Shown here: positions 60 through 4,240 of the stretch, in pieces
How positions within the stretch are numbered: the first letter of the stretch is position 1
Layout of the letters: every line of letters starts with the position of its first letter
NCBI RefSeq assembly: GCF_006345805.1
Contig: NW_021826905.1
Span: 1-11,862 of the forward strand
DNA: 11,862 nt
Reading direction: 5' to 3'
From: Octopus sinensis
Taxonomy: Eukaryota
Translations under genes and position numbers: made by a program
Notes under the pieces: generated by a model
What the model was told of the DNA's origin: nothing
Databases searched by the model: none
Seen by the model: only the letters and a program-made list of their open reading frames with translations

Positions 60-125
60 TTTCGCTACGCATGCAGGACCCCAGGAGCTCCAGAAAAACC
101 TGTGATACAAAGAAATAATAATAAC

Positions 126-673
126 AAACTATGCCAACACTATAGAATGATTACAGAAAAATGGTGGTATAGGATCACCACAGAAAAGGTCTCAGAAAAA
201 GGGGAAAGCAACCCTAACCCTGGGTTATGCCAATATACACAGATAGAGAAATCAAGGCTTATAGACCGGATATTGTTGTCAGGGATCACCCTCCCCGCCA
301 AAAAATGCCTTGGTATTTGATATATCAATACCAACAGATGACAATGTACCTCTAAACGAAACAGAATACAAAGATCTGGAAATAAAGGTGACCCGAATGT
401 GGGGCTTAAAAAGAGAAGCAATTCCTATAATAAATAGTAGGTGCATTAGGTATGATGAAACAAAAACTCAGACAAATATATAACCAAAACACCAGGACTT
501 ACAAATGTATATAACACAGAAAATAGCACTACTAGGCCCCGCGTACATCCTGCGTAAAACACTTTCAATACAATGAAAGCAAGAGCACAAAAACAAACTC
601 CAACACATACCCAATGCACACAGAGCTGCGCCCGGGAGTGCAGTGACAGCATGTGATCAAAATAAGACTACTG
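126..673 (+). mobile_element. Degenerate 5'-truncated R4/Dong-like RLE non-LTR retrotransposon 3' end (lineage A, older copy)
   Basis: Aligns by eye along its length with 3497-4045 (KLCQHY..TEK.WYR; aaatacaaagatctggaaata; gtaggtgcattagg; accaggacttacaaa; 3' end actactg+AAT). Many frameshifts and stops; AAT repeats on both sides. Confidence 0.88.
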
Positions 674-858
674 AATAAAATAATAATAATAATAATACTA
701 ATAATAATAATAATAATAATAATAATAATAATAAGTAATAATAATAAGAATATAATAATAATAATAATAATAATAATAATAATAATAATAATAATAATAA
801 TAATAATAATAATGATAATAATAATAATAATAATAATAATAATGATAATAATAATAAT
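674..858. repeat. (AAT)n microsatellite
   Basis: Directly visible, few interruptions; source of the poly-Ile ORFs. Confidence 0.97.
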
Positions 859-1296
859 ATCTGTCAAGACCTACCAAAAACTGAGCAAATATAAGATCTT
901 GAAATAGAAATCACAAAATGTGGAAGCTGAAGACTAAACAATACCTGTTGTCATAGGTGCCCTGGGAATGATAGCAAAAGGGACTGATTGCTACCTAACT
1001 CAATACCAGGAAACCCCAAAATGGCAGAAATTCAAAAGATAGTGATCATGGGAACTGCTCATATCCTACGCAAAATACTCTCTATGTAATCCCAAGGTTT
1101 AAAACAAACATTTTTCTTTCTTTTTTTTCTTTATTTTTTTTTTTATTTTATTTTTATGTATTAGACATTCACTAGTACAACACCAAAAAAAAAACCCCAA
1201 ATATATGACACAGAACTTCCAACCTGTTGTCTCTTGAGGTCTCTGGGTGAGACTTGGAGCCAACTTGTACAAATATAAAGCAAAAGTCAAACATAG
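859..1296 (+). mobile_element. 5'-truncated R4/Dong-like RLE retrotransposon 3' end (lineage B)
   Basis: Frameshift-corrected translation SVKTYQKLSKYKDLEIEI..MWKLKT..IPVVIGALGMIAKG...IPGNPKMAEIQKIVIMGTAHILRKILSM*, stop 1087-1089, then ~205 nt 3' UTR ending in (AAT)n. Confidence 0.88.
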
Positions 1297-1320
1297 AATA
1301 ATAATAATAATAATAATAAT

Positions 1321-1950
1321 TTACATTGGACAATATGTCGGTATTATAAAATCAAAACTGCTGACAACTGGTATAAACACCAATCTGAAGCTGTGACTGA
1401 GGGAGAAAATGTGTCGATTCTATGGGACTTCTCCGTACAGACCGACAAGACTATAAAAGCTAATAAACCGTATATTATTATAAAAGATCAGACAAAAAAA
1501 GATGTGTTTATTAAATGACATGAGTATCCCTTGCGATCACAATATAGCGGCAAAAGAATTTGACAAGATTAGTAAATATAAAGACCTGCTAATAGAAATT
1601 GAAAAAAATGTGGCATCTCAAGGCGACTACAGTACCAGTGATTGTAGGATCTCTAGGAATGATAAAAAAGGTACTGAAACCTATTTGAAAATGATTCCAG
1701 GCTTACCATCCCTACAGGAAATGCAAAAAATCAAATCAACTAGAACGGCTCATGTACTGAGAAGAGTATTATCGCTGTGAAAACAACATCCATCCATGAA
1801 TTTATTTATTTATTAATTTTTAAATACATATTTTATCTGTGAATTTGTGTGTGTAATCTGGGGGTGTATACAATGAGCTTCTCTGCCCCAGGTGTACGGA
1901 AAACACTCGGCGAGAAACGGAAGAAAATTTGAAGAAAGAAGGAAAAAAAC
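1321..1950 (+). mobile_element. 5'-truncated R4/Dong-like RLE retrotransposon 3' end (lineage C1)
   Basis: LHWTICRYYKIKTADNWYKHQSEAVTEGENVSILWDFSVQTDKTIKANKPYIIIKD.../MSIPCDHNIAAKEFDKISKYKDLLIEIEK/MWHLK...TAHVLRRVLSL*, stop 1778-1780. Frameshifts fall in A-runs; catalytic PD mutated to PY. Flanked by (AAT)n 1297-1320 and 1951-2073. Confidence 0.9.
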
Positions 1951-2073
1951 ATAATAATAATAATAATAATAATAATAATGATAATAATAATAATAATAAT
2001 AATAATAATAATAATAATAATAATAATAATAATAATAATAATAATAATAATGATAATAATAATAATAATAATA
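1951..2073. repeat. (AAT)n microsatellite
   Basis: Directly visible. Confidence 0.97.
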
Positions 2074-2074
2074 A

Positions 2075-2633
2075 ATGCCCTGATGCAGTACCAGGCAGTG
2101 GCTCTCATGGCTTCTGATCTTAACTGATTGGAAGTGTTATCATGTACATTGTTTTGTCTTGGTATAAAAGATGGGCTACAGCAAATATTCTGCTCAATAC
2201 CACAGATTTGCTTGTCAGTTGTTTGACCTTAACCAGTTGAGCATGTCCCTTAGTGGTTGACGATATGTGCATCTCTGATCACGAGCAGAAGTAGTGGGGG
2301 AGCATCATAGCCATGTGTTGAGAGGGATTCTTTGGGGTTTGAATAATTCACCTCTGGAAACATGGGTGGTTCTTTCAACATCCTTAAACAACCCTTATTC
2401 AGTCAGGGACCTTTGCGTGGAGTGGGCTACTCGACATGTAAAAAATTCTAACTGGGCCCCACCTACAAAGTCATGCACTGTTTACTTTGATGTGAGATCA
2501 CTATGTCGAGCACATGTGGTTGTGATGCACGTGTCTGGTGTACCCTTATGAGACGGGTAGTCATGATGGGTATATTGGGCTTCGTATATTTTACCCCAGT
2601 GTCACTTTGATGGCATGCACTGCTCTCTCACTC
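2075..2633 (+). mobile_element. Non-coding ~560 bp insert within the AAT array (non-autonomous element or long 3' UTR of another AAT-targeting retroelement)
   Basis: Complex sequence sharply bounded by (AAT)n on both sides; no RLE/RT-like peptide found; possible 3' hairpin cagtg...cactg near 2597-2622. Strand is inferred from neighbours. Confidence 0.55.
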
Positions 2634-2687
2634 AATAATAATAATAATAATAATAATAATAAGAAGAAGAAGAAGAAGAAGAAGAAG
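2634..2687. repeat. (AAT)9 then (AAG)9 compound microsatellite
   Basis: Directly visible. Confidence 0.95.
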
Positions 2688-2688
2688 A

Positions 2689-3405
2689 ACCACCTAATCT
2701 CTGGATGTAAAGTCTTAGCACCAGTGGAGTATAAATTAAGACATGACAGAGTTGGCCAATATCTACACTGGCTAATAAGTCGGCATTACAATATCAAAAC
2801 TGCCGACAAGTGGTATAATCACCACCCTGAGGCTGTAACTGAAGGAGAAAATGTAACCATTCTGTGGGACTTTCCAGTACATACAGACCGAACCATTAAG
2901 GCCAATAAACCAGATATTGTTGTGAAAGACAAAACAATAAAGTTTGCTTATTGATCGACATGAGCATCCCCTGTGATCATAATATCTCAGCGAAAGAGTT
3001 TGACAAGCTCAGAAAATATAAAGACCTACTCATTGAAATTGAGAAAATGTGGCATCTCAAGGCGGTTACAATACCAGTGATCGTAGGAGCACTAGGAATG
3101 ATCAAGAAGGGAACCGAAAATTATATGAGAATGATCCCTGGCTTACCATCCCTGCAAGAAGTGCAAAAGATTGTCTTAACTGGTACATCACACGTATTGA
3201 GAAGAGCATTGTCGATGTGAGAACCGTTACTGCTCATGTATTTTAATTTAACTTAAAAAATAAAAAATAATTTTTTTTTTTTAAATGAACGAACTATTGA
3301 GTTTGGTTTAATGGCCTACTAATGTATACTATGAGTTTCCTTGGCCTAGGAGTCGGGAAGACAGTCGGCAAGAAATGGAAGCAAATTTGAAAGAAGAAAA
3401 AAAAG
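2689..3405 (+). mobile_element. 5'-truncated R4/Dong-like RLE retrotransposon 3' end (lineage C2), longest fragment
   Basis: HLISGC (H-x4-C end of the CCHC knuckle), RHD motif, ILWDFPVHTDRTIKANKPDIVV, IDMSIP, KLRKYKDL, PVIVGALG, LQEVQKIVLTGTSHVLRRALSM*, stop 3218-3220. One frameshift near 2935-2950. This is the C-terminal RLE domain of R2/R4-group elements. Confidence 0.93.
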
Positions 3406-3465
3406 TAATAATAATAATAATAATAATAATAATAATAATAATAATAATAATAATAATAATAATAA
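3406..3465. repeat. (AAT)n microsatellite
   Basis: Directly visible, pure. Confidence 0.97.
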
Positions 3466-4045
3466 CATGACAGAGTTGGAACCTACATACATTGGAAGCT
3501 ATGCCAACATTATGGAATAACAACAGAAAAAAGATGGTATAGGCACACACCAGAAAAGGTCACAGAAAACGAGAAAGCAACCATACTCTGGGATATGCCG
3601 ATACACACAGATAGAGAAATTAAGGCCAACAGACCAGATATAGTTGTCAGAGATCATGAAGAAAAAAAATGCTTTCTAATTGATGTATCAATACCGGCAG
3701 ATGACAACGTGTCTCTAAAAGAAATGGAGAAACTCTCAAAATACAAAGACCTGGAAATAGAGGTAACCAGAATGTGGGACCTAAAAACAGAAACAATTCC
3801 TATCATAGTAGGTGCATTAGGCATGATAAAAAAATATTCAGACAAATACATAACAAAAACACCAGGACTTACAAACACATATAACATACAGAAAATTGCA
3901 CTACTAGGCACTGCACCATCCTACGCAGAACACTTTCCATACAATAACCATCAGAGCATCACAACAAATCACAGCACATACCCAAGGCACACAGAGCTGC
4001 GCTCGGTAGTGAAATGAAAGCACGCTATAAAAAATAAAACTACTG
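3466..4045 (+). mobile_element. 5'-truncated R4/Dong-like RLE retrotransposon 3' end (lineage A, younger copy)
   Basis: Open frame from 3466: HDRVGTYIHWKLCQHYGITTEKRWYRHTPEKVTENEKATILWDMPIHTDREIKANRPDIVVRD..CFLIDVSIP..KLSKYKDLEIEV..IPIIVGALG..IQKIALLGTA; 1-nt deletion near 3916, then ILRRTLSIQ*, stop 3945-3947; ~100 nt 3' UTR then (AAT)n. Confidence 0.93.
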
Positions 4046-4240
4046 AATAATAATAATAATAATAATAATAATAATAATAATAATAAATAATATAATAATA
4101 ATAATAATAATAATAATAATAATGATAATAATAACAATAATAATAATAATAATAATAATAATAATGATAATAATAATAATAATAATAATAATAATAATAA
4201 TAATAATAATAATAATAATAATAATAATAATAATAATAAT
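4046..4240. repeat. (AAT)n microsatellite
   Basis: Directly visible. Confidence 0.97.

What the first reader, a model, noticed from the sequence alone, without database searches (positions are those of the whole stretch)
60..4240. (AAT)n landing pad filled by several lineages of co-oriented RLE retrotransposons
Seen: five RLE-domain 3' ends in 4 kb, all on +, each ending in an AAT run and preceded by one (one via a short AAG tract), from about four clearly different lineages (A twice, B, C1, C2) with different 3' UTRs. Established: Dong (R4 clade) elements insert sequence-specifically into TAA repeats, and TPRT gives 5' truncation and fixed orientation relative to the target. Inference: several parallel families compete for the same microsatellite target, and each insertion leaves AAT on both sides, so the target is regenerated and a self-extending array results. 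Differing sequences and truncation points argue against tandem duplication.
Basis: partly seen in the sequence, partly recalled or inferred. Interest (0 to 1): 0.72.

Follow-up and report, generated by a model that had tools for sequence, protein, structure and literature searches.

The report
Stacked Dong retrotransposons, hairpin-bearing hitchhiker
Seven jumping-gene copies sit nose to tail in one AAT repeat of what is likely an octopus genome, which is common here and matches a known class of TAA-seeking elements; the less ordinary part is an abundant 559-base non-coding element that likely borrows their enzyme and is predicted to carry the same 3' RNA hairpin.

Summary
The coding fragments are 5'-truncated RT/RLE elements of Dong type. 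Genome-wide, 157 of 217 copies have (AAT)3+ at the 5' junction and 199 at the 3' end (background 0.6%), and 147 of 148 neighbouring pairs point the same way. Such stacks are common, and TAA-targeting Dong and many octopus Dong-R4 families are published. Placement beside named Dong or R4 was not testable. The scan already reported a similar stack and apparently the same hitchhiker elsewhere in this genome (e1-10333100). Added here: the lineages' dissimilar 3' UTRs share a covarying hairpin, also seen in metagenome relatives. A model trained without X ranks X's hairpin top among non-training hits in the window (12.7 bits; about 0.1% chance per 100 nt). The score is modest, the test was not fully blind, and the model misses lineage A. 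X is likely a Dong-mobilised non-autonomous element. Its promoter and partner lineage were not found.

The parts
45..59 (+). (AAT)5 left flank, continuing an (ATG)n run from the contig start
60..113 (+).
   Evidence: 80-90% matches to RLE-adjacent 3' ends in L068, L140, L134, L090; F copies carry RT end, CCHC and RLE
114..122 (+). (AAT)3 between F and A1
123..676 (+). A1: old, frameshifted 5'-truncated copy of lineage A (RLE + 3' UTR)
   Evidence: 78% to A2; best other genomic match 80%
677..859 (+). (AAT)n tract, about 60 units
860..1296 (+). B: 5'-truncated copy, end of RLE + 3' UTR; hairpin at 1225-1265
   Evidence: 95% copies elsewhere; long copies L178, L183; hairpin
1297..1320 (+). (AAT)8
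1321..1950 (+). C1: 5'-truncated copy, RLE + 3' UTR; hairpin at 1878-1918
   Evidence: 96% copies elsewhere
1951..2074 (+). (AAT)n tract, about 41 units
2075..2633 (+).
   Evidence: no tRNA, Rfam or 5S match
2536..2577 (+). predicted Dong-like 3' hairpin inside X
   Evidence: best non-training hit of model R1 in the window, 12.7 bits, E 0.13
2634..2689 (+). (AAT)9 then (AAG)9; AAG runs occur on the 5' side of insertions
   Evidence: 9 at 5' versus 0 at 3' junctions of 217 copies
2690..3405 (+). C2: 5'-truncated copy, end of CCHC + RLE + 3' UTR; hairpin at 3336-3376
   Evidence: 97% copies elsewhere; full-length L172
3406..3465 (+). (AAT)n tract, about 20 units
3466..4045 (+). A2: youngest copy, RLE + 3' UTR; variant hairpin near 3974-4014 not detected by the model
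   Evidence: 99% copy elsewhere
4046..4240 (+). (AAT)n tract, about 65 units, right flank
4241..4428 (-). head-truncated tRNA-type SINE whose ATT tail faces the array (B-box-like motif at 4370-4382); possible seed of the pad
   Evidence: the B-box motif is recalled and read by eye

Best explanation
The region is one AAT microsatellite holding seven co-oriented inserts: six 5'-truncated copies of restriction-like-endonuclease retrotransposons from five families and one 559-bp non-coding element, all likely placed by the Dong-type enzyme. Shown: full-length relatives encode RT, a CCHC finger and an RLE; copies genome-wide have AAT on both sides, variable 5' ends and one orientation; the inserts differ in age (79-99% identity to their nearest collected copies). 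Inferred from R2/Dong biology: the endonuclease nicks (ATT)n and reverse transcription starts at the RNA 3' end, which gives the fixed orientation, 5' truncation and a tract on each side that can be hit again. Predicted: the protein recognises a 41-nt 3' UTR hairpin (outer stem ending in C-G pairs, a 3-by-1 internal loop, a 6-bp stem, usually an NGG loop) that covaries across lineages. X likely moves in trans by carrying a similar hairpin 56 nt before its AAT tail. How X is transcribed is not established.
For: Architecture: RVT_1 + zf-RVT; alignment to R2 structures over RT to RLE, E 1e-27; single ORFs of 1200-1350 aa in a sister lineage. Junctions: Dong 157/217 5' AAT and 199/217 3' AAT; X 75/89 and 79/89, with 54/89 starting within 12 nt of one point; background 0.6%; full-length C2 5' ends 17/25 AAT, 7 AAG, 1 duplication. 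Orientation 147/148. Stacks are common: 57 of 145 focal copies have a neighbour across 300 nt or less of simple repeat. Hairpin: 84.7% of cells paired, 9 of 14 pairs with two-sided changes, 0/500 shuffles on four of five measures and 15/500 on the fifth, slid controls 31-48%; RNAalifold covariation term -3.16. The model finds held-out 3' ends (G 14.2, J 13.9, I2 13.5, H 11.8, metagenome L232 15.4 bits) and one new lineage blind in random DNA. X scores 12.7 in the window and 9.5-17.3 in 22 of 28 X loci; unrelated DNA gave 6 hits of 12.6 bits or more in 400 kb, both strands. Literature: Dong targets TAA (PMC3812793, PMC7998251, passages).
Against: No named Dong or R4 sequence could be put in the tree. 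45 of 217 Dong 5' junctions are 'other' (some are ends of the reference or early alignment ends, some real), and one of seven random X copies has no AAT tail. The counted copies come from best-hit loci and their neighbours, so they lean young and tract-associated. The model misses lineage A altogether and scores F at 9.5 bits or less; X's score is E 0.13 window-wide, 6 of 28 X loci were missed, and I had noticed the loop in X while spotting the motif. X's hairpin lies about 20 nt further from the tail than in the coding lineages. X has no detectable sequence similarity to full-length A, B, C1, C2 or I'. No activity or binding was tested.
Confidence: 0.8

Rival explanations
1. The coding elements are Dong-type, but X is mobilised by another LINE class (Tx1-like or CR1/L2-like) that also uses or ends in AAT/ATT, and its hairpin match is chance.
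For: No sequence shared with any Dong lineage examined; the model score is modest. Unchecked scan notes report a Tx1-like LINE in the same repeat and a CR1-like LINE ending in it (e1-9939279).
Against: X has AAT at 75 of 89 5' junctions, which a mere tail does not give. The chance of a 12.6-bit hit in a given 100 nt is about 0.075% (hand arithmetic).
Confidence: 0.13
2. AAT is only a 3' tail; elements pile up passively in simple-sequence regions or arise by local tandem duplication.
For: 3' tracts are slightly longer than 5' tracts in Dong copies (median 57 versus 45 nt, p 0.02); some same-family neighbours exist.
Against: 72% of 5' junctions abut AAT at many different truncation points (A: 66 distinct starts in 78 copies); neighbours are mostly of different families (105 of 148); window inserts have closer relatives on other contigs than in the window.
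Confidence: 0.03
3. The small unplaced contig is a mis-assembly that joins unrelated repeats through their AAT tails.
For: The window is a whole 11,862-bp contig made almost wholly of repeats.
Against: The same stacking occurs on chromosome-scale contigs and in random draws; truncation points abut AAT inside coding sequence, which read joining would not create.
Confidence: 0.04

Closest known systems
Dong elements of the R4 clade (Bombyx Dong, DongAg, DongBg, ostracod Dong1/2; PMC3812793 and PMC7998251, passages read)
   Same: Single ORF with RT, CCHC and RLE; (TAA)n on both sides; 5' truncation; a three-helix N-terminal domain consistent with the reported Myb/SANT-like domain.
   Different: At least ten 3' UTR types coexist here and stack in mixed arrays. 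A conserved 3' hairpin was not found in print. The 5' HDV-like ribozyme of Bombyx Dong (PMC3774820) was not detected by my descriptor.
'Dong-R4' LINEs of Octopus vulgaris (PMC13282606: parts 1-2 of 3 and a supplement search; PMC8967140: passages)
   Same: Many families and high abundance: 51 families, 92.7 Mb, 5 recently active families with 1,129 insertions.
   Different: The parts read give no target site, stacking, 3' structure or non-autonomous partner. The consensus library on Zenodo could not be seen and may hold X under another label.
R2 SIDEs of Drosophila (PMC3414825, passages read)
   Same: About 530-bp non-autonomous element in the host's target site, not Pol III type, keeping the 3' UTR secondary structure.
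   Different: SIDEs share 64% and 81% identity with R2's ends and have a tested ribozyme; X shares no detectable sequence with any Dong examined and no ribozyme was found.
Stringent SINE-LINE pairs with a shared 3' stem-loop (eel UnaSINE1/UnaL2, recalled); SINEU and Tx1 (PMC4494074, passages); EhSINE/EhLINE (PMC1635306, passages)
   Same: Non-coding element that likely depends on a LINE's 3' recognition signal.
   Different: X has no tRNA, 5S or snRNA head and is microsatellite-targeted; EhLINE/EhSINE have no sequence target.

Membership tests
Dong (R4 clade) | RT followed by CCHC finger and C-terminal restriction-like endonuclease, no APE domain | tested here: met
   Pfam RVT_1 + zf-RVT, no APE family; alignment to R2 structures through RT, CCHC and PD..D..K
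Dong (R4 clade) | Single long ORF | tested here: met
   Unbroken ORFs of 1201-1348 aa in 9 copies of sister lineage I'; A, B, C copies examined are frameshifted, longest frame 785 aa
Dong (R4 clade) | Insertion into (TAA)n with fixed orientation | tested here: met
   157/217 5' and 199/217 3' junctions; 147/148 co-oriented pairs
Dong (R4 clade) | RT phylogeny groups with named Dong, R4 and Rex6 | tested here: inconclusive
   No named reference was returned. Relatives at 45-66% include Acropora and Sitophilus proteins, taxa used as Dong examples in PMC7998251 Fig. 6 (accessions not visible); R2 is far more distant. Tree has no R2, NeSL or R4 rows.
Dong (R4 clade) | N-terminal Myb/SANT-like domain | tested here: inconclusive
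   Model pLDDT 88.6; Sap1, Zeste, TRF and R2 chains among the top rows but Z 6.4 or less, mixed with unrelated rows; Foldseek none
Dong (R4 clade) | 5' HDV-like self-cleaving ribozyme (Bombyx Dong) | tested here: inconclusive
   No Rfam hit; own descriptor found no convincing fold in 7 heads and had no positive control
SINE (Pol III, tRNA/5S/7SL/snRNA head) for X | Head derived from a small RNA gene | tested here: not met
   ARAGORN none; Rfam none at E up to 10 apart from one chance row; own-genome 5S versus X head 626/1000 shuffles, whole X 50/1000. A strongly decayed head cannot be excluded.
SINE (Pol III, tRNA/5S/7SL/snRNA head) for X | Short, non-coding, retroposed with a fixed 3' end and simple-repeat tail | tested here: met
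   559 bp, no internal open frame over 90 aa; 79/89 AAT tails; 54/89 full length, the rest 5'-truncated
SIDE (internally deleted LINE) for X | Sequence identity to both ends of an autonomous element | tested here: inconclusive
   None to A, B, C1, C2 or I'; lineages D-K are known only from 3' ends and none has X's tail; unseen lineages remain possible
SIDE (internally deleted LINE) for X | 3' UTR secondary structure of the host element kept | tested here: inconclusive
   12.7 bits, in the range of held-out lineages, E 0.13 window-wide
SIDE (internally deleted LINE) for X | Active 5' ribozyme | not testable with these tools
   Needs an in vitro cleavage assay; descriptor search uninformative

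The most novel reading that the evidence does not exclude
R4/Dong retrotransposons across animals recognise their RNA by one small conserved 3' hairpin, and X is a headless, microsatellite-targeted parasite of tens of thousands of copies that carries this hairpin without sharing sequence with any Dong: a class of non-autonomous element between SINEs and SIDEs, and with Dong a major companion of long AAT microsatellites in octopus genomes.
Probability: 0.4. Interest if true: 0.62.

Novelty: new variant of a known kind. Interest (0 to 1): 0.42.

Why it matters
The stack itself is ordinary for this genome. If the hairpin is the recognition signal, it gives a minimal, testable RNA handle for an RLE clade whose 3' signal I did not find described, and X would be a natural cargo showing trans-mobilisation to a microsatellite target. 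Dong and X also touch 9 of 21 long AAT tracts in random DNA, which bears on how octopus microsatellites arise and on their use as markers.

Tried and rejected
Pfam on the window fragments alone: only sub-threshold DUF5620. Polarised array growth: the window's inserts get roughly younger left to right, but genome-wide pairs show no polarity (50 versus 67, p 0.14; 14 versus 17 for non-focal pairs). X as a 5S-, tRNA- or snRNA-headed SINE: no support. X as a deletion product of A, B, C1, C2 or I': no similarity; one RLE fragment fused to a truncated X in L074 looks like an insertion of X. HDV-like descriptor: hits no better than shuffles (13 of 40 shuffles hit). 5' micro-duplications as a shared signature: too few by the strict count (6 of 213 Dong, 3 of 89 X). 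Expression of X: no RNA holder listed on record; contigs cannot show a start. Independent support for the B/C1 junction: contigs were cut at the repeat, no verdict. Named references for the tree: none returned; the original Dong paper is not held. No known fold stood clearly above background for the N-terminal domain. Literature searches that returned no paper on a Dong-dependent non-autonomous element or a Dong 3' hairpin: (open-access library only; Repbase and the Zenodo library were not visible).
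Full report
Observation. The window is a whole 11,862-bp contig of a 2.72-Gb animal genome, likely an octopus; that label rests on recalled repeat types and on unchecked scan notes, not on a named record. Five RLE-coding 3' ends lie on + between AAT runs: A1 123-676, B 860-1296, C1 1321-1950, C2 2690-3405, A2 3466-4045. A1/A2 are 78% identical, C1/C2 72.5%, A2/C2 63%. Two inserts were overlooked. 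Bases 60-113 match the 3' UTR end of a separate lineage F, whose copies carry the end of RT, CCHC and RLE. Bases 2075-2633 are a non-coding repeat, X.

What the coding elements are. Long copies were fetched for each lineage: A about 3.9 kb, B 4.9 kb, C2 5.6 kb. They match RVT_1 and zf-RVT and align to R2 structures from RT through the endonuclease (E 1e-27). A protein search found 53,563 first-look candidates and nine unbroken ORFs of 1201-1348 aa, all from a young sister lineage I' not present in the window. The N-terminal domain of C2 folds with pLDDT 88.6 and its best matches include Myb/SANT-type DNA-binding domains, but only at Z 6.4 or less. Lineages are deep: protein identity is 50% for A-B, 52% for A-C2, 55% for B-C2 and 79% for C1-C2, while B and C2 are 65-66% identical to database proteins of unnamed source; in a FastTree tree of 44 sequences (one dropped) A, B and C do not group together, with weak backbone support. 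No named Dong, R4, Rex6 or NeSL sequence was available, so clade placement is not shown.

Target and orientation. Of 217 distinct A, B, C1, C2 and F copies with both junctions in view, 157 have (AAT)3+ at the 5' junction, 13 an AAG/GAT/AAC run, 2 ATT and 45 something else; 199 have (AAT)3+ at the 3' end. Background is 0.6%. Truncation points vary (66 distinct in 78 A copies). These copies are best hits and their neighbours, so they lean young and tract-associated. In 400 kb of random DNA, 3 of 5 visible A 5' junctions were AAT, 1 AAG and 1 other, and 6 of 6 visible X 5' junctions were AAT. Full-length C2 starts at one point: 17 of 25 behind AAT, 7 behind AAG, 1 behind short duplications. AAG runs are a 5'-side feature (9 versus 0 of 217), which accounts for the tract at 2661-2689. 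Of 148 adjacent pairs among the six core families, 147 are co-oriented; 25 further pairs involving lineages with poorly bounded references were left out (170 of 173 overall). 57 of 145 focal copies have such a neighbour. Window inserts are 79-99% identical to their nearest collected copies, so they arrived at different times; there is no general polarity of age.

Element X. It is 559 bp with no long frame. Of 89 copies, 54 start within 12 nt of one point, 75 have AAT at the 5' side and 79 at the 3' side. Seven loci in 400 kb suggest about 48,000 copies (Poisson range 19,000-98,000; hand arithmetic). It is held by runs of six coded organisms in nine studies (four runs laid). No tRNA, Rfam or 5S head was found, and no sequence similarity to full-length A, B, C1, C2 or I' or to the other 3' ends collected.

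A shared 3' hairpin. The 3' UTRs differ in sequence, yet a 41-nt segment aligns almost without gaps in B, C1, C2, D, E, I and two metagenome relatives. The named structure has 84.7% of cells paired, 9 of 14 pairs with changes on both sides, 0 of 500 shuffles on four measures and 15 of 500 on the fifth, and slid controls at 31-48%; RNAalifold predicts nearly the same fold. The eight rows were chosen because they aligned well; with A, F, G and X added, pairing falls to 74.4%. A covariance model built without X ranks X 2536-2577 as the best non-training hit in the window (12.7 bits, E 0.13) and finds it in 22 of 28 X loci at 9.5-17.3 bits. Held-out 3' ends score alike: G 14.2, J 13.9, I2 13.5, H 11.8, a second G-like end 10.3, metagenome L232 15.4. 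One apparent background hit proved to be the 3' end of a further lineage. Unrelated random DNA gave 6 hits of 12.6 bits or more in 400 kb on both strands, about 0.075% per 100 nt or 0.8% for all of X on both strands. Against: lineage A is missed and F scores 9.5 or less; I had seen X's loop while spotting the motif; the hairpin is 56 nt from the tail in X and about 26-40 nt in the coding lineages. The two common variants inside X's stem swap G-C for G-U and keep pairing, which is weak support.

Mechanism. Shown: structure, flanks, orientation, ages, covariation. Inferred from R2 and Dong biology: nicking of (ATT)n, priming at the RNA 3' end, early termination, tract left on both sides and so re-use of the pad. 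Predicted: the hairpin is the protein's 3' recognition signal and X uses it in trans. Pads may be seeded by other elements' tails: the right end of the array faces the ATT tail of a minus-strand SINE, as do 36 of 308 Dong/X 3' ends. In random DNA 15 of 53 AAT tracts, and 9 of 21 long ones, touch Dong or X. X's transcription is unexplained; Bombyx Dong self-cleaves from a TAA co-transcript (PMC3774820, passages), but my descriptor found no such fold in X or in seven Dong heads and lacked a positive control.

Known and new. TAA targeting by Dong, including a mollusc, is published (PMC3812793; PMC7998251; passages). Octopus vulgaris has 51 Dong-R4 families, five recently active (PMC13282606, parts 1-2 of 3 and a supplement search; PMC8967140, passages). 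R2 SIDEs are the closest precedent for X (PMC3414825, passages). This scan noted a similar stack and a 558-base hitchhiker, apparently X, elsewhere in this genome, without a shared signal (e1-10333100; I had found X before that call). Searches returned no paper on a Dong-dependent non-autonomous element or a Dong 3' hairpin; Repbase and the Zenodo library were not visible and may hold either.

Verdict. The added value is X and the predicted shared hairpin: new variant of a known kind, interest 0.42.

Noticed in passing
window 6972-10954: 22 tandem copies of a 181-bp unit at 97% identity; the unit looks like a common octopus SINE (recalled), and single copies occur in other loci.
   Followed up: no
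window 6100-6486 and 11159-11547: Inverted copies (87-100% complementary arms) of a repeat of about 400 bp on either side of the satellite; also inverted SINE-like fragments at 6747-6815 and 11060-11137.
   Followed up: no
window 5113-5787 and 6601-6689: 4.3 copies of a 157-bp satellite plus one detached partial copy.
   Followed up: no
window 4429-5114: (GAT/GGT)n of about 520 bp, then (AAT)14 and (AAG)41 with no Dong copy recognised behind it.
   Followed up: no
window 4241-4428 (-) and other loci: tRNA-type SINE whose ATT tail faces Dong/X tails in 36 of 308 cases; 87 hits in 400 kb of random DNA. May seed landing pads.
   Followed up: partly
L320-L328: Very young 4.6-kb lineage I' with unbroken ORFs of 1201-1348 aa and a clean copy of the 3' hairpin (37-45 bits).
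   Followed up: partly
L172 and L178 5' ends; L333-L357: Full-length B and C2 share a motif of about 60 nt at the 5' end (0 of 1000 shuffles); C2's start can pair with a downstream segment; no Rfam match. Possible unrecognised ribozyme.
   Followed up: partly
L217:3966-4006 (-): 3' end of a further, decayed Dong-type lineage found blind by the hairpin model.
   Followed up: partly
L062, L063, L180, L040, L048, L334, L348: Short tandem duplications of the first 10-25 bases at 5' junctions in both Dong and X copies.
   Followed up: partly
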